Positions 6,108-17,218 of a DNA stretch of 64,000 nt are shown piece after piece (position 1 is the stretch's first letter; the number at the start of each line of letters is the position of its first letter). The stretch comes from a virus. The notes under the pieces were generated by a model that was not told where the DNA came from, did no database searches, and was given only the letters and a program-made list of their open reading frames with translations. A program made the position numbers and the translations under genes. The stretch is from positions 1 through 64,000 of IMG/VR virus record IMGVR_UViG_3300033997_000406; one strand, 5' to 3'.

Positions 6108-6392
6108 ATGAAAGTTAAAAACACGGTAACAACAGGTTCGGTTTCCTCTCCAGCAGCAAAGGTTTTAACTCAGTACCTTAAGCGCCAGCGCCAAGAACAA
6201 GGCCTGACCATGCGCGAAATTGGTGAGCGCATGAATGGGCCGCACTCCTTTGTAGGCAAGATTGAGAACAACGAGCGCCGTATAGACATTGTTGAATACG
6301 CGAAGTACTGCCAGCTGTTAGGTATAGATGCAATGGTCGGTTTTCAGCTGGTCATGGAACAAGTCAAAGCAGAACTGGCCCAGCGCAGCTAA
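6108..6392 (+). CDS. XRE-family HTH regulator
   Basis: RQEQGLTMREIGERM...FVGKIENNERRIDIVEY. Confidence 0.9.
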   Translation: MKVKNTVTTGSVSSPAAKVLTQYLKRQRQEQGLTMREIGERMNGPHSFVGKIENNERRIDIVEYAKYCQLLGIDAMVGFQLVMEQVKAELAQRS

Positions 6393-10246: not shown

Positions 10247-10423
10247 GTGAAGCAAAGCGAATTCAGGCGCTGGCTGGTAGCTCAAGGGGTAGAAATGAAA
10301 AATGGTAAGAAACATTTGAAACTCTACTACAACGGCCAACAGTCAACAATGCCAAGGCACCCAAGCCAAGAAATCGGGGAAGGCCTCAGAAAGGCCATAC
10401 TCAAACAGCTTGGATTAGAATAA
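10247..10423 (+). CDS. hicA: HicA toxin (58 aa, not in ORF track)
   Basis: GGAGG RBS; MKQSEFRRWLVAQGVEMKNGKKHLKLYYNGQQSTMPRHPSQEIGEGLRKAILKQLGLE; two ACATTTTTGTTTACT operator-like repeats upstream. Confidence 0.92.
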   Translation: MKQSEFRRWLVAQGVEMKNGKKHLKLYYNGQQSTMPRHPSQEIGEGLRKAILKQLGLE

Positions 10424-10476
10424 AAGTGAGCCCCTGAAATGGGGCTAGCTTTATCGCAAAGCGGAGCAACAGAACT

Positions 10477-10887
10477 ATGAAATATCCAGTAACTATACTT
10501 GAAGATGGGAACGGCTATATGGCCACATTTGCTGATATACCAGAAGCACTAACAGCTGGCGATACTTATCAGGAAGCTCTTGATAATGCAGCCGATGCAC
10601 TGGTAACAGCCTTTGAATTTTATTTTGAAGATGGAAGGAAAATACCCTTACCTGCAGAGACAAAAGCCGGTGAATTTGTCACCGTGCCGGTCAGCTTGTG
10701 GTCTAAAGTTTTACTCTTGAATGCAATGGTAGAAAACAAAGTAACTCAAGCGGCTTTGGCCGAAAAAATGGGGCTGTCAAAACAAAGCTTTCAACGTATT
10801 GTGGATGTGAGACATGCAACTAAAATTGATATGATCGACGCAGCGCTAAACGCGCTTGGAAAACGACTTGAGCTGACAGCAGCTTAA
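10477..10887 (+). CDS. hicB: HicB antitoxin
   Basis: YPVTILEDGNGYMATFADIPEALTAGDT plus C-terminal HTH. Confidence 0.93.
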   Translation: MKYPVTILEDGNGYMATFADIPEALTAGDTYQEALDNAADALVTAFEFYFEDGRKIPLPAETKAGEFVTVPVSLWSKVLLLNAMVENKVTQAALAEKMGLSKQSFQRIVDVRHATKIDMIDAALNALGKRLELTAA

Positions 10888-10922
10888 GTACAATAGCCCC
10901 GGTCGTGCCGGGGCTTCTCATT

Positions 10923-11537
10923 TTAAAACTTTATTGCCTGTACCAACCTCTCAGAATCCGACATAAACGTACTCAGATAGTGATCTGTTGACGACAAAGA
11001 CGCCTGCCCTAAACCATCCCGAACCTGATGAATAGACGCCCCATTATCAACCAAAGCCTTAGCAAACGCTTTTCTCATACTGTGCGTTGATAGTTGATAA
11101 TCCAGGCGCAACTCAGCAGCAACCGTCTTTAGTATCTGATTCACATGCTGACAAGTGTAAGGCTTGCCTGGCCGCACACTGCTTTCAAAAATAAGAGCTT
11201 TACCGTGATTCAAATGCTCTGCATCTTCAATAACCGCCTTACACTGATCCGTCAGGTAAACAGTCAATTTAGCCACCCGCTTAGCCTCTGCCTCACTCTT
11301 GCCAGCCGTTATAGATTTTGCGTAAATCTTAGACTGAATTATGATGACCGAGCTTCTAATTACACCGTTAATATACAGCTCTTTAAAGGTGAGTTTTGAT
11401 ACATCACAAAACCTTAAACCGCTCAAACAACTAAATTCCAACATCAATGCAATGATGGGGTTTTTCTGATCCACCAGCTGCAGTATTTTGCGCATTTCCC
11501 TCAAATCCTTAGGGGGATAAGCTAGTCTGCCCGACAT
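10923..11537 (-). CDS. Small tyrosine recombinase (resolvase-like, catalytic domain only)
   Basis: GLRFCDV, HSMRKAFA, LGQAS...TDHYL catalytic motifs. Confidence 0.9.
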   Translation of the reverse strand: MSGRLAYPPKDLREMRKILQLVDQKNPIIALMLEFSCLSGLRFCDVSKLTFKELYINGVIRSSVIIIQSKIYAKSITAGKSEAEAKRVAKLTVYLTDQCKAVIEDAEHLNHGKALIFESSVRPGKPYTCQHVNQILKTVAAELRLDYQLSTHSMRKAFAKALVDNGASIHQVRDGLGQASLSSTDHYLSTFMSDSERLVQAIKF

Positions 11538-11556
11538 TGTTGCTTTTCCTTATATA

Positions 11557-11886
11557 TCAATCAAATATGGCTTGAATTCTGGCAAGAATATCCACCAGCA
11601 AGTCCGGTTCCACAGCATCAGTCTTAACCGCCCTATTGGCTGCTAAGTTTATTGTAAATGGCTGCCCGCAGTTGACGATCCCTGATGTAATACTGGTAGT
11701 GAGCCCGCCGCGTGCTTCAACGAAAAAGCCATAACTTTGATGATTAATCTCCCTGTTTATGGGGCAAACGATAGCAAGCTTAGTGGATTCATTAAAAGCT
11801 GTTGCCGATACAACCAGCACATACCTGTCACCAACCAGCGACGATTCACCTTGCTGGGGCACCCTATAAATATCACCTTGCTTCAC
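11557..11886 (-). CDS. PemK/MazF-family toxin
   Basis: QGDIY...R.VLVVS...FN..TKLAIVCPI. Confidence 0.88.
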   Translation of the reverse strand: MKQGDIYRVPQQGESSLVGDRYVLVVSATAFNESTKLAIVCPINREINHQSYGFFVEARGGLTTSITSGIVNCGQPFTINLAANRAVKTDAVEPDLLVDILARIQAIFD

Positions 11887-12125
11887 GGCTTAATCTCCAC
11901 TGACTGAGCAACTTCCCAACCTTCAACGCGAGGCAGGCAGCCTGACATTTCAGCAATAAGATCATCCAACTTATAGCGAGGTCTACTTTTCGCCTCAACG
12001 GTCATTTTTGCACCATCCAGCTGCAACTTCACCTTGGAGCCATCACCAAGGGAGTTCTGATCAATAAAAGCCTTTGGGACAGTCATCACTAACGAACCGC
12101 CAGCCTTTCTTAATGTTTGCCACAT
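11883..12125 (-). CDS. AbrB/MazE (PemI)-family antitoxin
   Basis: LRKAGGSLVMTVPK...RPRYKLDDLIAE. Confidence 0.9.
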   Translation of the reverse strand: MWQTLRKAGGSLVMTVPKAFIDQNSLGDGSKVKLQLDGAKMTVEAKSRPRYKLDDLIAEMSGCLPRVEGWEVAQSVEIKP

Positions 12126-12188: not shown

Positions 12189-12480
12189 ATTTTAGGGTAA
12201 ACGAAAATTACAGGTAGCAACCCCCTTTTCAGTGCGATTTTCCTGCTGTTGCCATACGCTACAAACAAAAAAGAGCAAGTGCGTAAGTCATTGTTTTTAT
12301 TCTGTTTATTTTGCCTATTTGCCGATTTAAACAACCCCTACCACTTTCAAGAATGCGTATTCTTGAAAGTGACGGGGCGTTTTGGTGAATTCTGCATGAC
12401 TAAGCCCCTGCAAAACTTAAAGCAGGAGCGTAGCGGCGCGTTTTTAAAAGTGGTTTTTATGGGGTAGGGGGCCGAGCAGT

Positions 12481-13089
12481 TTAGGCAGATATTTTTCTGG
12501 ACAGTCTTTCTTTCAGGTAATGAGCATCTAGCATCATCGACCACACACCAAGCATAATTAAGTTGTGACTCGCTACCTCAAAACTCTCATACTTTCTATA
12601 GAAAAAAGGTGGACCCACAAATAAGTTATGATCAAAGTGATAAAGAGCCACCTCACATAAAGCGATGAAAAAAGGCACTGTAGATAAAATCAGTATGGCT
12701 GACACAGCTATGGATTGAGGAATAAATGCTCTACGAATGTCAGCCCTGGCTAACTGCAGCAAGAAACCCGAACAGTGAAACTTAAACAGCAAGTAACTGA
12801 ACAATACATAGTTAAATACTTCCAGCGTCAACACGTAAGGTGCAGCCTCAAAGTTCCAACCAATGAAATAATAAACTAATCTATGTGATAAAAACTTGAC
12901 CAAGAAAAATACTGCAAGAATCCACAATGAAGGCTGTATCTCACCGCGTTTTAAATTGGCAAGAATCACATAAATAAATATACCAAGAGTAATAATAGTG
13001 CCTACTGACTTTTCAAAGGTGAAATAATAGTAGGCCCACATTGAAAACATAAATGCCAGTATGTGAACTGGCACCATTAGATTCTTCAT
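12481..13089 (-). CDS. Polytopic membrane protein (~6 TM), unknown function
   Basis: Multiple hydrophobic segments, AT-rich; AAGGAAGGA RBS. Confidence 0.75.
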   Translation of the reverse strand: MKNLMVPVHILAFMFSMWAYYYFTFEKSVGTIITLGIFIYVILANLKRGEIQPSLWILAVFFLVKFLSHRLVYYFIGWNFEAAPYVLTLEVFNYVLFSYLLFKFHCSGFLLQLARADIRRAFIPQSIAVSAILILSTVPFFIALCEVALYHFDHNLFVGPPFFYRKYESFEVASHNLIMLGVWSMMLDAHYLKERLSRKISA

Positions 13090-13120
13090 AAAAAATTAAT
13101 CCTTCCTTGGAAGCGTAAAA

Positions 13121-13360
13121 TTAATTCTCGTTTGTTGGCCATGGCGGCAAAGTATTGCCCATGGTTTTAACTTCACCGCCACTTAAGGCCAAAGCCTCAG
13201 GTGATAAAGTAACAGTGTCTGCCTGAGTGGCAATCGCAGTCTCACCGCTTTTATTCTCCGGCTTTACTGCTGTAGCTGTTGGTGCAGCCGTGCCAGGCTT
13301 TACTTCCGCTTGGACGGACTGATAAGCCGCCGCGCCGTTATTTGTCACTTGCATTTTCAT
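13121..13360 (-). CDS. Small low-complexity protein / putative secreted peptide precursor
   Basis: Ala/Thr-rich N-terminus, DTVTLSPEALALSGG motif, C-terminal MGNTLPPWPTNEN; GGAG RBS. Confidence 0.7.
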   Translation of the reverse strand: MKMQVTNNGAAAYQSVQAEVKPGTAAPTATAVKPENKSGETAIATQADTVTLSPEALALSGGEVKTMGNTLPPWPTNEN

Positions 13361-13628
13361 CTCTCCGTCTTTGCCGCCAGGCCTTGCTGGCTGAATATAA
13401 AAACTCTCTCGGTATTAGGAGCTTGATAATAAGATAAAGTGACGGCTTTGTAACGGTTATCCACTTCTTGCAAAACTGCAGTGAAGGATCAGCTTCGTTT
13501 TTCTCAACACGATAAATATGAGACTTAGCGCAACCAATTTTCGCAGCAAGCTGAGTAGCAGATAAACCAGCCTTCTCACGCATATCCCTAAAAATATCTC
13601 CTGGTGTACATCCGCTCTCTTCGGTCAA
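13338..13628 (-). CDS. XRE-family HTH regulator
   Basis: REKAGLSATQLAAKIGCAKSHIYRVEKNEADPS. Confidence 0.88.
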   Translation of the reverse strand: MTEESGCTPGDIFRDMREKAGLSATQLAAKIGCAKSHIYRVEKNEADPSLQFCKKWITVTKPSLYLIIKLLIPREFLYSASKAWRQRRRDENASDK

Positions 13629-13664
13629 AACACTATCTCACTGCTTACAAATTAGGCTAAAGCT

Positions 13665-13716
13665 CTGTTTTATATTCAAATATAAAGAAATATCAAGAAT
13701 TCGTAATATAAAACAG
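13665..13716. promoter_or_regulatory. 12-bp inverted repeat overlapping a minus-strand promoter
   Basis: CTGTTTTATATT-N28-AATATAAAACAG overlapping TTGATA-16-TATAAA (minus). Confidence 0.5.
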
Positions 13717-13816
13717 TGCGTTATTTGAACAACGTCTCTTTTTTGGGACGGCCCAAACTATACAATAGTCCTGGCATTTGAGCAGCAGTAATCTGGTTAT
13801 TTTTTACCGTAACCAC

Positions 13817-13833
13817 TTTATCCTAACAGACAT
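13817..13833 (+). promoter_or_regulatory. 17-bp repeated operator upstream of c1 operon
   Basis: TTTATCCTAACAGACAT. Confidence 0.6.
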
Positions 13834-13931
13834 TACTGCTGGCTGAACAAAATATGGACTTAATGATTTAATTAGCAAGGTATTATTTATTAGCTTATTA
13901 ATCATTATTAATTTGTGTGTTATTATCTTAG

Positions 13932-14243
13932 TTGAGGTTAGTAGTGAATAGTGCATACGCAGGTTTTAAAACGGAATTTCATCAGTTTGTAAGTGATTTA
14001 TTGGTTGTTGACGCATTAAAAGACGCCTCTCTAGGCCTTTCAACAGCTGAAGTCGCTGAGTGCTTATCTACAATAGAAAGTGACACCATTGATAGTAATG
14101 GCTTGCTTTCCAGCGCAGTGAATACGTTGAGGAACCTGTTACCAGACCACTTGAGGGAGTGGCCTTGTGCATCTGAATTCATTGCTACCCTTATAATCCC
14201 TCGCGCTCGTGCGGTTCTGTGCGTGGAGGGTATTGCAGATTAG
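13932..14243 (+). CDS. Hypothetical protein at the coi (C1 inactivator) position
   Basis: Acidic small ORF immediately upstream of c1-like gene; positional only, start uncertain. Confidence 0.4.
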   Translation: MRLVVNSAYAGFKTEFHQFVSDLLVVDALKDASLGLSTAEVAECLSTIESDTIDSNGLLSSAVNTLRNLLPDHLREWPCASEFIATLIIPRARAVLCVEGIAD

Positions 14244-14262
14244 GAGATAATCAGGGGGCAAC

Positions 14263-15069
14263 TTGGCTAAGATCACTCTAAAAGAGCTGACTGAAACACG
14301 TAATTTGTATGATCAGGTGATTAACGACCTGAAAGTCAGATTTAAAGACAATCTCATTTATCAAGAAACGACTTCAACGGGCGCTACGCGGCGGCCGTTG
14401 TTTTATGTTGCCTCTCAAAAGCAGCTGGATGATGTAAAATCCACAATTCACCGGCTGCAACAGCTCGCTAATGAAATCCGCACCCTTGCAGGCAGTGACG
14501 TTCGCCTGAATATGCCTATCCTTGAAGAGGGTGTGCTGCTTTATCGAATCTGGCTAAATACGGCACACGCCAGCTCAAGCTCAAGCACAACTACTCGCGT
14601 TGAAATCATTGAGCGCATCAAAAGACGTATAGAGTCTGTTGAACGCTACGGCGATTCACCAACCCATACAGCCCTTATGGAGCAGCTGCAGAAAGAACTT
14701 AGGTTCTTTGAAAATGAGACTGAAGTTAGTTACCGCTCTCGTTCTATGGGACACCCAGTTACCACTGTTGGTATATCCAAAATCCACGGAATAGATGGTA
14801 AACAACTACTGAACGATGCAGGCATGTACATTGTTGGCACTGACTTTGAAGTACCTCGCGGTGAAACACCCGATAGTAAGAATAAAAAGCAGCGCAAAAA
14901 GCGGGTAAACATCTTTGACGAACTAACGCCTGTCGAGTACAGCGGATCGACAGCATTGCTTTACAGAGAAAGCGAAGTGGAGGCCCGTAAACAAGCAATC
15001 GGCTTTACGGCGGAAAAACAGAAGCAGGTCGTTGCAGAAAACCGCACCAGCAAAAAGAAGCGCGATTAG
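14263..15069 (+). CDS. c1: Primary repressor, P1 C1-like
   Basis: Collinear similarity to recalled P1 C1 (GATRRPLFYV; YRSRSMGHPVT; IFDELTP...LLYRESEVEARK; basic tail); convergent with pacB as in P1. Confidence 0.7.
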   Translation: MAKITLKELTETRNLYDQVINDLKVRFKDNLIYQETTSTGATRRPLFYVASQKQLDDVKSTIHRLQQLANEIRTLAGSDVRLNMPILEEGVLLYRIWLNTAHASSSSSTTTRVEIIERIKRRIESVERYGDSPTHTALMEQLQKELRFFENETEVSYRSRSMGHPVTTVGISKIHGIDGKQLLNDAGMYIVGTDFEVPRGETPDSKNKKQRKKRVNIFDELTPVEYSGSTALLYRESEVEARKQAIGFTAEKQKQVVAENRTSKKKRD

Positions 15070-15683
15070 CCATCTAACGCGCTCTGAAATTGCGGTCGAC
15101 TGTATAAGCGGGCCAGATACAGCCTTAGTGGCTTTAAGGCCCGCGCTTTTGATTCAACCCCTATATCAGGCAGACGCCACATTAAAGCCGCTATAAAGCA
15201 ATCCAATGCACTGACTTCATCTGACAGCATATAACGCTGCTCACCTAATGCTGAGGCTAATTCGGTCATTGCATCCACCAGCTGCCGCCTGGCCTGTGCC
15301 GCCCCTTTGCCTTTGGCCAACACTTCCTCAGCTGCAGGGATAAATATGTGCTGAAACCGGTGCAACATCAGTTTGATTGTAGCCTTAGCACCAGCACCTT
15401 TTGTAACGGGACCAGGCAAATACAAACTAGGCTCCGGATAGCGCTCATCCAGATAATCCGCAATAATCAGCGCATCAAACAGCATGGCGTCATTTCTGAC
15501 ACTCAGCATAGGTAGTTCACGGGTAGGGTTAAAGCTCAGCAGCTCAGCAGGTAATCGGCCGGGCTCCATTGGCACCAGCCTGTAAGTTAGTCCTTTTTCC
15601 CTCAGCATCAGCCGGATAGCATGACTTCGGATACAGCCAGCGTCATAAATGGCGATGGGTGATTTATCATAGATTTTAGCCAC
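15066..15683 (-). CDS. sspA: Stringent starvation protein A homolog (GST fold)
   Basis: RSHAIRLMLREKG, NPTRELPML, IIADYLDERYPEPSL, SDEVSALDCFIAALMWRLP, RLYSRPQFQSAL; AGGAG RBS. Confidence 0.88.
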   Translation of the reverse strand: MAKIYDKSPIAIYDAGCIRSHAIRLMLREKGLTYRLVPMEPGRLPAELLSFNPTRELPMLSVRNDAMLFDALIIADYLDERYPEPSLYLPGPVTKGAGAKATIKLMLHRFQHIFIPAAEEVLAKGKGAAQARRQLVDAMTELASALGEQRYMLSDEVSALDCFIAALMWRLPDIGVESKARALKPLRLYLARLYSRPQFQSALDG

Positions 15684-15697
15684 TTTGTATACTCCTG

Positions 15698-17218
15698 TTA
15701 GCTATCAAGCCAGTCGGCCATTTCATCGGCTGCAGTGTCGTGATCTGCATGATCCGATTCGTAGTTATGCGGTACATAGTCAATCAACTGAGTGAAACAG
15801 TACGTGTCAGAGCGGTCAGGCGAGGGGATTTGCAATTTTGTGCGCATGATTTCTTTTTTCATCATCAACCACAGGCCCGATTCATTCATGGACACAGGCA
15901 GCTTAGAAAACTGGTCTATTGTTTTGTTATCGCTATCCAGGCCCATACGTCCCGTCAGAATTGCTGCCTGAGTGTATATGTGCGCCATTGCCCGAAGGTT
16001 AACGAATCTACGCTTAGCCGCTGGCATTTTTGGCGGGAAACCCCACCGAATACGGATAACGGTAAAATCGGGCGCCAGCTCGGACACATGGCTATGCACT
16101 TGATGGCCAGCACCATCGCCGTCTATCGCTATGGTGATATTTGGGTATTGGCCACTACAGCACTCGGCAACAATGCGGCGGCAGAACACGGCCGGATCAA
16201 TATCAGCTGGCATTTCCAGCAGCCGGTGATTGACGACAACCCGCTCTGGCCCAATTGGTCCTGATACCCGGCTAATGTTTATGACAGACCTGTCACGACC
16301 ACCACCAACGTCTATCGTTGCCACCCACCCCCAATCAGCGCCAAGCTTCTGTGCAACAGCGCGTCTGGCTGCTGCAGTAGCTGCCGCTTGAACATCATCA
16401 CGGCCAAGCAGGTAGGCCGACATATTGCGAGGGAAGCAACCCAGTACTTTGATTTGAAACTCAGGACTATCGAACCCGCCATACTCTTTGAGCTTGTCGA
16501 TAATGAATTGCTTGGTGACGTGCTTAGACAGGGCAGAGGACATCGTAATAGAGTGCCAGGTGCCATCTGCTGACATCTTAATGCTAAGGTCATGGTGCGT
16601 TCGGTAAAAGTAACCACCTACACGGGTAGGCTGTGACAGCAGTAGTACTCGGTTATCTTCTGATGTTTGGGCGCCCATGATGACGCCAAACGCTCTGTCG
16701 TTAACACCTGAGGCCTCATCGACAATGGTAAGCATGTGGTCGGCGTGTTCACCGGCTAATGACTCTTCCTGATTTAAGCGGAAGCCTTTAGGGCTGACAT
16801 ACCAGATACCTTTACTGGTACGTTCAAAGAAACTGCTCTCAGTCAGTACAAAATAGTTGGCTATCCAGGGGAACCGGCGCTGCAGTGCCTTAAAGTGTAT
16901 TTTTAGGTTTTTCCAGACCGCATCCATGACCTGGCGTATTTTGTTGGCGATGATGACAACCCGCCCCCCAGGGTGCAGAATCATAAATATGATAATCATC
17001 GCAGCGGTAAGGAAAGACTTGCCGGTACCATGGCCAGAACTGACTGAGGTTCTGCTACCGACCTTACTCACGTTATCCAGCACTTCGCGCTGCTGGAAAT
17101 CTGTCTCAATACCTAATAGTTCAGCACAAGCCAAGTCCCAATCGGCATCGTATCTTCTTATTAGGTCGAGGTAGCGAGGATCACTGACGATACTCAGGAT
17201 GCGCTTTTTGCCACTCAC
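15698..17218 (-). CDS. pacB: Terminase large subunit
   Basis: SGHGTGKS Walker A, IVDEASG, ID.GGGRD, SPDRSD nuclease motifs. Confidence 0.92.
   Translation of the reverse strand: MSGKKRILSIVSDPRYLDLIRRYDADWDLACAELLGIETDFQQREVLDNVSKVGSRTSVSSGHGTGKSFLTAAMIIIFMILHPGGRVVIIANKIRQVMDAVWKNLKIHFKALQRRFPWIANYFVLTESSFFERTSKGIWYVSPKGFRLNQEESLAGEHADHMLTIVDEASGVNDRAFGVIMGAQTSEDNRVLLLSQPTRVGGYFYRTHHDLSIKMSADGTWHSITMSSALSKHVTKQFIIDKLKEYGGFDSPEFQIKVLGCFPRNMSAYLLGRDDVQAAATAAARRAVAQKLGADWGWVATIDVGGGRDRSVINISRVSGPIGPERVVVNHRLLEMPADIDPAVFCRRIVAECCSGQYPNITIAIDGDGAGHQVHSHVSELAPDFTVIRIRWGFPPKMPAAKRRFVNLRAMAHIYTQAAILTGRMGLDSDNKTIDQFSKLPVSMNESGLWLMMKKEIMRTKLQIPSPDRSDTYCFTQLIDYVPHNYESDHADHDTAADEMADWLDS

What the first reader, a model, noticed from the sequence alone, without database searches (positions are those of the whole stretch)
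12481..13716. XRE regulator, peptide precursor and membrane protein cassette divergent from the c1 region: candidate peptide communication system
Seen: three tightly linked minus-strand genes encode an XRE HTH, a 79-aa low-complexity protein and a ~6-TM membrane protein. Their promoter overlaps a 12-bp inverted repeat and faces away from the coi-position/c1 operon. The small protein carries DTVTLSPEALAL, resembling the D-x-V-x-LS-x-x-A-x-x-L segment of FlgM-like flagellar-exported proteins. The same stretch, LSPEALALSGG, is one residue short of a double-glycine leader and is followed by the Pro/Trp tail EVKTMGNTLPPWPTNEN. Inference: an exported peptide, a membrane sensor or immunity protein and a regulator could feed into the lysis-lysogeny switch (arbitrium-like logic in a Gram-negative phage). 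Alternatively it is a superinfection-exclusion or motility-modulating moron. I know no P1 equivalent.
Basis: partly seen in the sequence, partly recalled or inferred. Interest (0 to 1): 0.78.

Follow-up and report, generated by a model that had tools for sequence, protein, structure and literature searches.

The report
Phage regulator, floppy protein, membrane partner
A distant relative of phage P1 carries, beside its repressor region, a real and conserved three-gene operon (small DNA-binding regulator, floppy 77-residue protein, six-helix membrane protein) of undescribed families whose function is still unknown.

Summary
Three co-oriented minus-strand genes form an operon: XRE regulator 13338-13628, disordered protein 13121-13354 (77 aa from the better start), 6-TM protein 12481-13089. 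Its sigma-70-like promoter is bracketed by a perfect 12-bp inverted repeat. The host genome is an 84-kb P1-like phage (PacB 48% to P1-type PacB).

The trio recurs in the same order in a sister phage (PacB 71%) and in a Tara scaffold that shares nothing else with this phage. It is absent from 31 of 32 other pacB-anchored P1-like loci.

The small protein resembles only the N-terminal half of FlgM: 7 of 9 family members hit TIGR03824 below its cut-off, over model positions 1 to about 55 of 98. It lacks the sigma-28-binding half and ends in a conserved PPxWP motif.

The double-glycine reading fails. That GG is not conserved, and the phage has no C39 peptidase or ABC ATPase. The regulator has no peptide-receptor domain, so arbitrium-like logic is unsupported.

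The membrane protein belongs to a small family (31 representatives) with no Pfam, PDB or viral fold match.

My best guess (0.36) is a self-contained, autoregulated cassette in which the disordered protein is the cytoplasmic partner of a membrane effector (exclusion, abortive infection or addiction). Signalling readings are not excluded.

This scan noted the same kind of cassette before on other P1-like DNA.

The parts
13658..13723 (.). Inverted repeat bracketing the operon promoter (arms 13658-13676 and 13705-13723; perfect 12-bp core 13665-13676 / 13705-13716). Candidate operator of the XRE protein.
   Evidence: One search gives 19-nt arms, 89% complementary, 28 nt apart. Searches show the 12-mer only at these two places in the window and in the whole 84,431-bp genome at 0-1 mismatch. 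Binding by the XRE protein is inferred, not shown.
13669..13696 (-). Sigma-70-like promoter read by hand: TTGATA (13696-13691), 16-nt spacer, TATAAA (13674-13669). The -10 overlaps one repeat arm.
   Evidence: Coordinates come from the script. The consensus scan did not list it, because that scan requires T at position 6 of the -10. No transcript data.
13338..13628 (-). XRE-family HTH regulator, 96 aa, TTG start, with a conserved C-terminal extension (KKW..TKP, then a hydrophobic helix, then PREF).
   Evidence: Pfam HTH_3 E 4.2e-10 over residues 14-57. Homologues lead the cassette in L003 (122 aa, 44% over 52 aa) and L007 (88 aa, 44% over 86 aa).
13121..13354 (-). Disordered small protein, 77 aa (79 aa if read from 13360). 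It has a variable Ala/Thr/Pro-rich N-terminal half, a conserved DTVxLSxEAxAL segment and a C-terminal TLPPWP motif.
   Evidence: No Pfam or PHROG match. The family gives sub-threshold FlgM (TIGR03824) hits in 7 of 9 members, though the window's own copy gives none. The Atlas model of the L003 homologue has pLDDT 0.36.
12481..13089 (-). Six-helix inner-membrane protein, 202 aa, of an undescribed family. Conserved features: N..R.EI.P in a cytoplasmic loop, IPQ, E146, PFFY and WSMMLDAH.
   Evidence: AlphaFold2 pLDDT 93.2, pTM 0.88. The family has 31 representatives at E <= 0.001 among 1.84 billion. None of the 31 aligned members hits a Pfam family beyond two stray DUF hits. There is no PDB sequence hit and no Foldseek hit at E <= 0.001 in PDB or BFVD. 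A strong AAGGAAGGA Shine-Dalgarno precedes the ATG.

Best explanation
This is a self-contained accessory operon of a P1-like phage-plasmid, and it regulates itself. The small XRE protein most likely represses its own promoter through the flanking inverted repeat, giving steady low expression in the lysogen. The 77-residue disordered protein stays in the cytoplasm. Through its conserved C-terminal third (DTVxLSxEAxAL helix plus PPxWP motif) it most likely binds the conserved cytoplasmic face of the six-helix membrane protein and holds its activity in check or tunes it. The membrane protein is the working part. It most likely acts at the inner membrane to protect the lysogen or the plasmid-prophage, by superinfection exclusion, abortive infection or post-segregational killing, with regulator-antidote-effector logic.

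Shown: the genes, their order, their joint conservation, the repeat, the topology, and the lack of any known family.

Inferred: autoregulation, the small-protein/membrane-protein contact, and the biological role.
For: (1) Operon anatomy. There is one promoter-like site with a genome-unique inverted repeat, a 17-nt overlap between XRE and small gene, and strong ribosome sites. In L003 the small and membrane genes overlap by 4 nt; in L007 they abut.

(2) The trio moves as a unit. It is the only thing shared between the window phage and the 12.5-kb Tara locus L003 (blastp of all ORFs). It is kept in sister phage L007 while the neighbouring cargo is swapped: MazEF and HicAB here, a 145-aa ORF and Phd-YoeB there. 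Trio GC is 40% against 47% for the genome.

(3) It sits among addiction modules, as shown by the same calls.

(4) The small protein has no hydrophobic N-terminus, no TM segment and a disordered prediction. Between the window and its 92%-identical membrane relatives the small protein is only 64-65% identical, with all but two changes in the first 44 residues. The constrained part is therefore the C-terminal third.

(5) Several of the most conserved membrane-protein residues lie on the predicted cytoplasmic face.

(6) No exporter, peptidase, receptor domain or sigma factor accompanies the trio in the 84-kb genome.

(7) Contig-length coincidences suggest that small and membrane genes share contigs in three further assemblies: 9888, 4457 and 3488 bp.
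Against: No homology to any known toxin, antitoxin, defence or exclusion protein: PADLOC, PHROGs, Pfam and NCBIfam are all empty for the small and membrane proteins. A 200-aa six-helix effector is unusual for a toxin-antitoxin-like module. The FlgM-N-terminal likeness is left unexplained by a purely cytoplasmic role and fits an exported protein better. The duplicated DDVPPGWPPT unit in L007 looks more like repeated peptide cores. The block has diverged together with the c1-position genes, which could mean a role in the immunity switch. No expression, toxicity or binding data exist.
Confidence: 0.36

Rival explanations
1. Exported-protein signalling. The small protein leaves the cell through the flagellar type III export gate, using its FlgM-like disordered N-terminus. 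The six-helix protein senses it, or confers immunity to it, and passes the signal on by holding the XRE repressor at the membrane. This is the logic of SdpC/SdpI/SdpR in Bacillus subtilis (recalled).
For: 7 of 9 family members match the N-terminal half of FlgM model TIGR03824, best E 4.9e-4. Passages of PMC3372961 state that flagellar substrates are chosen mainly by a disordered N-terminal signal and that FlgM is such a substrate. The Atlas lists a 'flagellar-dependent secreted protein' family as a sub-threshold lead (0.84). The XRE protein has a conserved hydrophobic C-terminal extension that could serve as a docking site. The membrane protein has no output domain, as SdpI does not (recalled).
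Against: All FlgM scores lie below the cut-off (best 20.8 against 40.75 bits), and the window's own copy gives none. hhalign against E. coli FlgM gives E 0.12 over 13 columns. A 77-residue protein released outside the outer membrane has no evident way back to an inner-membrane protein with very short periplasmic loops. There is no Pfam SdpI match. Export has not been shown, and the host and its flagella are unknown.
Confidence: 0.15
2. Peptide precursor plus membrane-embedded processing enzyme (AgrD/AgrB-like logic, recalled). The six-helix protein cuts or modifies the PPxWP core of the small protein and releases a pheromone or bacteriocin-like peptide.
For: The small protein has an amphipathic helix, a short conserved Pro/Trp core and a charged tail. 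The core unit is duplicated in L007 (two DDVPPGWPPT units), as in multi-core precursors. The membrane partner is about 200 aa with six helices and conserved polar residues inside the bilayer region (E146, Q125).
Against: No Pfam AgrB match or any peptidase or transferase family. No invariant Cys or His across the 31-row alignment; only Q125 is invariant, with P53, E146 and W183 nearly so. Trp is replaced by Leu in one relative (P0009), and the motif is degenerate in the Pseudoalteromonas homologues. No exporter or receptor genes are present.
Confidence: 0.12
3. A lineage-specific part of the lysis-lysogeny switch. The XRE protein and its two partners modulate the c1-position repressor operon next door, for example as a second immunity layer.
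For: The position is directly divergent from the coi- and c1-position genes, and this position is kept in the sister phage. The whole block from the sspA-like gene through the c1- and coi-position genes to the trio is 31-44% identical between the two phages, while flanking pacB and the recombinase are 71% and 67%.
Against: The XRE operator 12-mer occurs only at its own promoter in the 84-kb genome. The dispersed 12-mer TTATCCTAACAG, a candidate C1-type operator with 11 sites against 0.07 expected, lies about 120 bp upstream of the operon's -35 and points at the opposite gene. The same trio sits in an unrelated context in L003 with no c1-like gene within 6 kb. 31 of 32 other P1-like loci lack it.
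Confidence: 0.12
4. FlgM mimic. The small protein binds host sigma-28 and shuts down flagellin and motility genes, for instance to remove a flagellar receptor.
For: The sub-threshold FlgM hits and the shared V-T-L-S motif aligned by hhalign to E. coli FlgM residues 38-50.
Against: Matches stop at model position about 54-63 of 98, so the C-terminal part of FlgM is missing; that part holds most of the sigma-28-binding region (recalled). E. coli FlgM as a control matches positions 1-97 at 72.4 bits. Pfam FlgM gives nothing even at E 10. This reading gives the conserved membrane partner no role.
Confidence: 0.05

Closest known systems
FlgM, anti-sigma-28 factor (NCBIfam TIGR03824; Pfam PF04316)
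   Same: A disordered small protein. The N-terminal half has the same layout, including the (D/S)xVxLSxxxxxL segment. 7 of 9 family members hit the model's positions 1 to about 55, and hhalign aligns the motif to E. coli FlgM residues 38-50.
   Different: Scores of 13.8-20.8 bits lie below the 40.75-bit cut-off, and the window copy gives no hit. The C-terminal 35-45 model positions are absent and replaced by a PPxWP tail. The gene is paired with an XRE regulator and a six-helix membrane protein on a phage, not with flgA/flgN (one search shows the E. coli context).
Three-gene regulator / antidote / effector cassettes of plasmids and prophages (omega-epsilon-zeta, PaaR-PaaA-ParE; SpoIISA-SpoIISB membrane toxin with disordered antidote). 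All recalled, not tested.
   Same: Regulator first, a small disordered middle protein, a larger third protein; tight gene coupling; travels as a unit; sits among MazEF, HicAB and Phd-YoeB modules.
   Different: No sequence relation to any of them. The third protein is a polytopic membrane protein without a soluble domain. Toxicity and neutralisation are untested.
SdpR-SdpI-SdpC of Bacillus subtilis (recalled)
   Same: An autorepressor, a roughly 200-aa polytopic membrane protein without an output domain, and a small protein in one locus. This offers a way for such a membrane protein to signal, by sequestering the repressor.
   Different: SdpC carries a Sec signal and the window's small protein does not. 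The regulator here is XRE, not ArsR type. No Pfam SdpI match. The setting is a Gram-negative phage.
AgrB-AgrD (recalled) and double-glycine-leader peptide loci
   Same: A small precursor-like protein next to a six-helix protein of about 200 aa; an amphipathic helix followed by a short core and a charged tail.
   Different: No AgrB family hit and no invariant Cys or His. The GG is not conserved in place. No C39 peptidase or ABC ATPase in the phage.
immC-lox/cre junction of P1 and D6
   Same: Same map position. Downstream of pacB lies a convergent repressor gene, then a tyrosine recombinase (D6 annotation; L010).
   Different: D6 and L010 go from the repressor gene straight to the lox/rox site or recombinase. 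Here about 3.4 kb are intercalated: the coi-position gene, the trio and MazEF. An sspA-like gene also follows pacB.
Arbitrium (AimR-AimP-AimX) and other RRNPP systems (recalled)
   Same: A phage-borne regulator with an XRE-type HTH next to a small ORF.
   Different: There is no TPR peptide-binding domain, as the regulator is only 96 aa. The small protein has no Sec signal peptide, and a membrane protein is present instead of AimX.

Membership tests
XRE / Cro-C1 HTH (Pfam PF01381 HTH_3) | Match to the HTH_3 model above the gathering score | tested here: met
   39.9 bits against a cut-off of 23, E 4.2e-10, residues 14-57. The L003 and L007 homologues score 41.1 and 53.2 bits.
FlgM (TIGR03824 / PF04316) | Whole-protein score above the curated cut-off | tested here: not met
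   7 of 9 family members score 13.8-20.8 bits against a cut-off of 40.75. The window copy and P0010 give no hit at E <= 1. Pfam FlgM gives nothing at E <= 10 for the three members scanned at that limit (at E <= 1 for the window copy). E. coli FlgM as a control scores 72.4 bits.
FlgM (TIGR03824 / PF04316) | C-terminal part of the model, holding most of the sigma-28-binding region (role recalled) | tested here: not met
   Matches end at model positions 53-63 of 98. The proteins end 19-25 residues later in a PPxWP or basic tail.
FlgM (TIGR03824 / PF04316) | Disordered N-terminal half with the VxLS segment | tested here: met
   Matches start at model position 1 or 11. hhalign pairs ADTVTLSPEALAL with E. 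coli FlgM residues 38-50 (E 0.12, not significant on its own). The Atlas pLDDT is 0.36.
FlgM (TIGR03824 / PF04316) | Export by the flagellar type III system and binding of sigma-28 | not testable with these tools
   Needs secretion and binding assays; the host is unknown.
Double-glycine-leader peptides | GG cleavage site at a fixed place after the leader helix | tested here: not met
   In the 8-row alignment the residues after L-S/L-L are GG, GG, SI, SN, AN, SS, SG, GG, and a second G-G/G-N pair lies further on at a different distance.
Double-glycine-leader peptides | Cognate C39-peptidase ABC exporter | tested here: not met
   No PF03412 match at E <= 1 and no PF00005 match at E <= 0.01 in the 84,431-bp phage genome; the controls rang. 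A host-encoded exporter cannot be excluded.
Arbitrium / RRNPP signalling | Receptor-regulator with HTH plus TPR peptide-binding domain | tested here: not met
   The regulator is 96 aa and only HTH families match, over residues about 10-60. Relatives are 88 and 122 aa.
Arbitrium / RRNPP signalling | Propeptide with an N-terminal secretion signal | tested here: not met
   The N-terminus is polar (MQVTNNGAAAYQ...) with no hydrophobic stretch, by inspection. No signal-peptide predictor was available.
AgrB-type peptide-processing membrane proteins | Family model match and catalytic His/Cys (residues recalled) | tested here: not met
   No Pfam family for any of the 31 members beyond two stray DUF hits. 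No invariant His or Cys in the 31-row alignment.
Known anti-phage defence / toxin-antitoxin families | Match of the small or membrane protein to a PADLOC, Pfam, PHROG or NCBIfam model | tested here: not met
   0 families for both proteins in PADLOC, Pfam and PHROGs, and for the membrane protein in NCBIfam. In NCBIfam the small protein has only the FlgM hits.
Regulator-antidote-effector cassettes (functional class) | Effector toxic alone, neutralised by the middle protein | not testable with these tools
   Needs expression experiments.
Any solved membrane-protein fold | Structural match standing clear of background | tested here: inconclusive
   Foldseek against PDB gives a best E of 0.5. VIA-align wide gives a best Z of 10.4, to a designed helical bundle, within the range the tool calls common for helical proteins. 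BFVD gives a best E of 0.15, to unnamed viral proteins.

The most novel reading that the evidence does not exclude
The small protein is a FlgM-derived substrate of the host's flagellar export gate that the phage has rewired. While it stays in the cell, its PPxWP tail engages the six-helix partner (and through it the XRE repressor). Once the host's flagellar apparatus is complete it is pumped out, so the plasmid-prophage reads the host's flagellar and motility state, or via the released protein the density of lysogens. That would be a FlgM-style export checkpoint carried by a virus.
Probability: 0.07. Interest if true: 0.85.

Novelty: new variant of a known kind. Interest (0 to 1): 0.5.

Why it matters
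P1-type phage-plasmids are model temperate elements, yet this aquatic and subsurface branch carries, right beside its repressor operon, a conserved operon made of two protein families that nobody has described. If the membrane protein proves to be an exclusion, abortive-infection or addiction effector held by a disordered partner, it adds a new protein pair to the defence and addiction repertoire. If the FlgM-like half really directs export, it would be the first phage system tied to the flagellar export gate. Either way the pair is small, self-contained and easy to test in E. coli or a marine host.

Tried and rejected
Searches that found no relatives:
- Megablast of 12300-14300 against phages and plasmids: no match.
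- tblastn of the membrane protein against phages and plasmids, and of relatives P0013 and P0024 against plasmids: no match.
- IMG/VR scans with A1, A2, P0013, A8 and the c1-position protein: no relatives.
- GTDB genome scans with A1 and A2: none.

Function and structure searches that gave nothing usable:
- Protein Atlas gave only unnamed clusters and sub-threshold leads.
- Profile searches of PDB sequences with the small-protein and membrane-protein alignments gave no relevant hit.
- The A7 profile found nothing in E. coli K-12 at E <= 1.
- Complex prediction of membrane protein plus small protein returned 'no answer' (score 0.27, mark 0.32). This is no evidence either way.

Sequencing runs: no RNA holder is listed. 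Four subsurface-metagenome runs hold the stretch and may be its source. Laying three low-share runs showed only short contigs of 151-310 nt, with about 1-25 differences over the part of each that fits. They cover pieces of the trio, the recombinase gene and the c1-position gene. The runs are two wastewater runs labelled RNA-Seq ('RNA?' is a guess) and one soil run. This shows that relatives occur there but says nothing about transcription.

Tail covariation: with only three independent lineages (five pairs), covariation of the tail with the membrane protein cannot be assessed. The PPxWP core is simply kept.

Readings considered and dropped: double-glycine leader, RRNPP receptor, AgrB homology, SdpI homology, and a sigma/anti-sigma pair inside the phage. 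There is no sigma-70 region 2 match, and only a 15-bit region 4-like match at 6186-6263.

Literature: searches (listings and abstract starts only) showed no paper describing such a cassette. Supplementary files were not consulted.
Full report
WHAT IS THERE. The window is the first 64 kb of an IMG/VR virus record of 84,431 bp with direct terminal repeats, rated 100% complete. It is a distant P1 relative. The 506-aa ORF at 15698-17218 (-) is 46-49% identical over 96-98% of its length to PacB of RCS47, D6 and P1.

On the minus strand between 12481 and 13628 lie three co-oriented ORFs:
- a 96-aa XRE protein (Pfam HTH_3, E 4.2e-10);
- a small Ala/Thr/Pro-rich protein;
- a 202-aa hydrophobic protein.

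The small ORF is 79 aa from the first ATG. The second ATG (13354) lies 6 nt behind GGAGAG and gives the 77-aa form held in the protein collection. XRE and small gene overlap by 17 nt. The membrane gene follows after 31 nt, behind AAGGAAGGA.

Upstream of the XRE start I read a promoter by hand: TTGATA, 16 nt, TATAAA (13696-13669). The consensus scan did not list it. A perfect 12-bp inverted repeat, inside 19-nt arms that are 89% complementary, brackets it, and one arm covers the -10. The 12-mer has no other copy at 0-1 mismatch in the whole genome.

THE MEMBRANE PROTEIN. Word-indexed search found 4 relatives among 97 candidates. An exhaustive profile search of 1.84 billion representatives found 31 at E <= 0.001, of which 24 were at <= 1e-10. 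I aligned 28 of these, leaving out three fragments of 106-174 aa, together with the window copy, the L003 copy and P0006, giving 31 rows. Only Q125 is invariant. P53, E146 and W183 are nearly invariant, and the blocks RREIxP, IPQV, PFFY and WSMxLD recur. No member has a Pfam family beyond two stray DUF hits. PHROGs, PADLOC and NCBIfam are empty.

AlphaFold2 on this alignment gives pLDDT 93.2 and pTM 0.88 with six long helices. K/R counts in the loops fit N-in/C-in. Foldseek finds nothing at E <= 0.001 in PDB or BFVD. VIA-align gives only generic helical bundles, with best Z 10.4. It is a real protein of an undescribed family.

Cluster records name Rheinheimera sp. SA_1 and gammaproteobacterial MAGs. 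They also show many contigs of 82-93 kb, the size of this phage. That is suggestive only.

THE SMALL PROTEIN. Relatives of 68-94 aa come from this phage's near kin, Rheinheimera MAGs, Pseudoalteromonas chromosomes and the sister phage. The Pseudoalteromonas set is marginal, at E 1.6. The family shares three features: an N-terminus with M-x-(V/I) and an A-Y pair, a segment DTVx(L/I)SxEAxAL, and near the C-terminus G-G-x-x-(L/V)-P-P-W-P followed by charged residues. The Trp is Leu in one relative. The motif is degenerate in Pseudoalteromonas and occurs twice (DDVPPGWPPT) in the sister phage.

Between the window and two near relatives the membrane protein is 92% identical but the small protein only 64-65%, with all but two changes in the first 44 residues. 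The Atlas model of the L003 homologue is disordered, with pLDDT 0.36.

IS IT FlgM-LIKE? Pfam FlgM gives nothing. NCBIfam TIGR03824 is a different matter: 7 of 9 members match it at E 4.9e-4 to 0.078 (it is the only family listed for five of the seven; P0008 and P0009 also give weaker stray hits), at 13.8-20.8 bits against a cut-off of 40.75. The matches always cover model positions 1 or 11 to about 53-63 of 98. The window's own copy and P0010 do not match. E. coli FlgM, fetched as a control, scores 72.4 bits over positions 1-97. hhalign of the family against it aligns only the VTLS motif (13 columns, E 0.12).

So the family looks like the N-terminal half of FlgM and lacks the C-terminal part, which by recall holds most of the sigma-28-binding region. 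It is not a FlgM. Common descent of the N-terminal half is possible but unproven. The phage encodes no sigma factor.

IS IT A DOUBLE-GLYCINE OR ARBITRIUM-TYPE PEPTIDE? The GG after LS is not conserved in place. No C39 peptidase or ABC ATPase is present in the phage. The regulator is too short for a peptide-binding domain. The small protein has no hydrophobic N-terminus. These readings fail their defining tests.

CO-OCCURRENCE AND CONTEXT. A metagenome scan found Tara scaffold L003 (93.8 kb), where the XRE (122 aa), small (80 aa) and membrane (201 aa) genes stand in the same order, with the last two overlapping by 4 nt. No other ORF of that 12.5-kb locus matches the phage. Its neighbours are an NAD-dependent ligase and ORFs without family.

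After an earlier scan note pointed to similar cassettes on other P1-like DNA, I anchored on PacB. IMG/VR contig UViG_3300036770_005287 (85 kb, PacB 71%) has the same map: pacB, sspA-like gene, convergent c1-position and coi-position genes, then divergent XRE (88 aa), small (94 aa) and membrane (227 aa) genes.

Protein identities between the two phages are as follows:
- PacB 71%;
- recombinase 67%;
- sspA-like 39%;
- c1-position 39%;
- coi-position 31%;
- XRE 44%;
- small 32%;
- membrane 34%.

The cargo around the trio differs. Here it is MazEF and HicAB; there it is a 145-aa ORF and Phd-YoeB.

Of 32 pacB-anchored IMG/VR loci, only one has hits to profiles of the three trio proteins, and it is that same contig. 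All but one of the 32 have at least 5.6 kb downstream of pacB. In L010 (PacB 52%) and in D6 the repressor gene is followed directly by the recombinase or the lox-type site.

The trio is thus a lineage-specific insertion at the immC-recombinase junction that also exists elsewhere on its own.

RELATION TO THE SWITCH. The 268-aa ORF in the c1 position has no family and no tblastn hit in phages. It aligns weakly with the annotated D6 repressor, at 20% over 133 aa and pairwise E 6e-4.

A dispersed asymmetric 12-mer, TTATCCTAACAG and variants, occurs 11 times in the window against 0.07 expected. One copy, at 13818-13829, points at the coi-position gene. This recalls P1's dispersed asymmetric C1 operators, described in passages of PMC8546580. 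It lies about 120 bp upstream of the trio's -35.

The trio's own repeat is unique in the genome. In the sister phage the equivalent region holds different inverted repeats.

I infer local autoregulation by the XRE protein rather than a feed into the c1 circuit. The joint divergence of the whole block nevertheless keeps a link to immunity open.

MECHANISM. The best-supported reading (0.36) is an autonomous, self-regulated cassette in which the constrained C-terminal third of the disordered protein binds the conserved cytoplasmic face of the membrane protein, the effector. The benefit would be exclusion, abortive infection or addiction, in keeping with its neighbours and its mobility.

The rivals are:
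- exported-protein signalling with SdpC/SdpI/SdpR-like logic (0.15);
- precursor plus membrane processing enzyme (0.12);
- part of the switch (0.12);
- sigma-28 mimic (0.05).

The remainder is unassigned. None of the functional steps is shown.

NOVELTY. Both non-regulator families are undescribed in every library searched. Four literature searches (listings only) showed no matching description. The scan has noted the same kind of cassette before on other P1-like DNA (e1-6065619, e1-6065633). The sister phage found here fits the wording of the second note, a 94-residue protein ending in two Pro/Trp motifs. The architecture (regulator, small partner, membrane protein) is a known kind, while the components and the FlgM-like half are new.

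Noticed in passing
window 15066-15683 (-): A 205-aa SspA-like GST-fold protein directly follows pacB (NCBIfam SspA model E 1.1e-40, 139 bits, below its 314-bit cut-off). The sister phage has one at the same place, 39% identical, with GST_N hits.
   Followed up: partly
window 5148, 6013, 13818, 18355, 20332, 21633, 26737, 32817, 37942, 46789, 60256: The asymmetric 12-mer WTATMMTAACRG occurs 11 times against 0.07 expected, mostly before genes. It is a candidate operator of the c1-position repressor, by analogy with P1's dispersed asymmetric C1 operators (PMC8546580, passages).
   Followed up: partly
window 10247-12125: Two toxin-antitoxin pairs flank a short (204-aa) tyrosine-recombinase-family gene at 10923-11537: HicA/HicB (10247-10887, +) and MazE/MazF (11557-12125, -). 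The sister phage has Phd/YoeB instead. The recombinase is much shorter than the 342-aa Cre-like one of L010.
   Followed up: partly
window 12345-12370: A near-perfect 26-bp palindrome (11-nt arms, 4-nt loop) lies about 110 bp downstream of the membrane gene's stop. It was seen as a self-match and in the sequence. It may be a terminator or a binding site.
   Followed up: no
window 13783-13792 / 13832-13841: A second perfect 10-bp inverted repeat (CAGCAGTAAT / ATTACTGCTG, 39 nt apart) flanks the 13818 motif in the divergent intergenic region.
   Followed up: no
window 14263-15069 (+) and 13932-14243 (+): The ORFs in the c1 and coi positions have no family in Pfam, PHROGs or NCBIfam and no tblastn hit in 50,697 phage records. 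The 268-aa one aligns only weakly with the D6 repressor. The immunity genes of this P1 branch are essentially uncharted.
   Followed up: partly
L003 2577-4439 (+): The Tara scaffold that carries the second copy of the trio encodes a 620-aa NAD-dependent DNA ligase of phage type (phrog_3869, E 2.6e-102) among ORFs without family. The scaffold may itself be a large mobile element.
   Followed up: no
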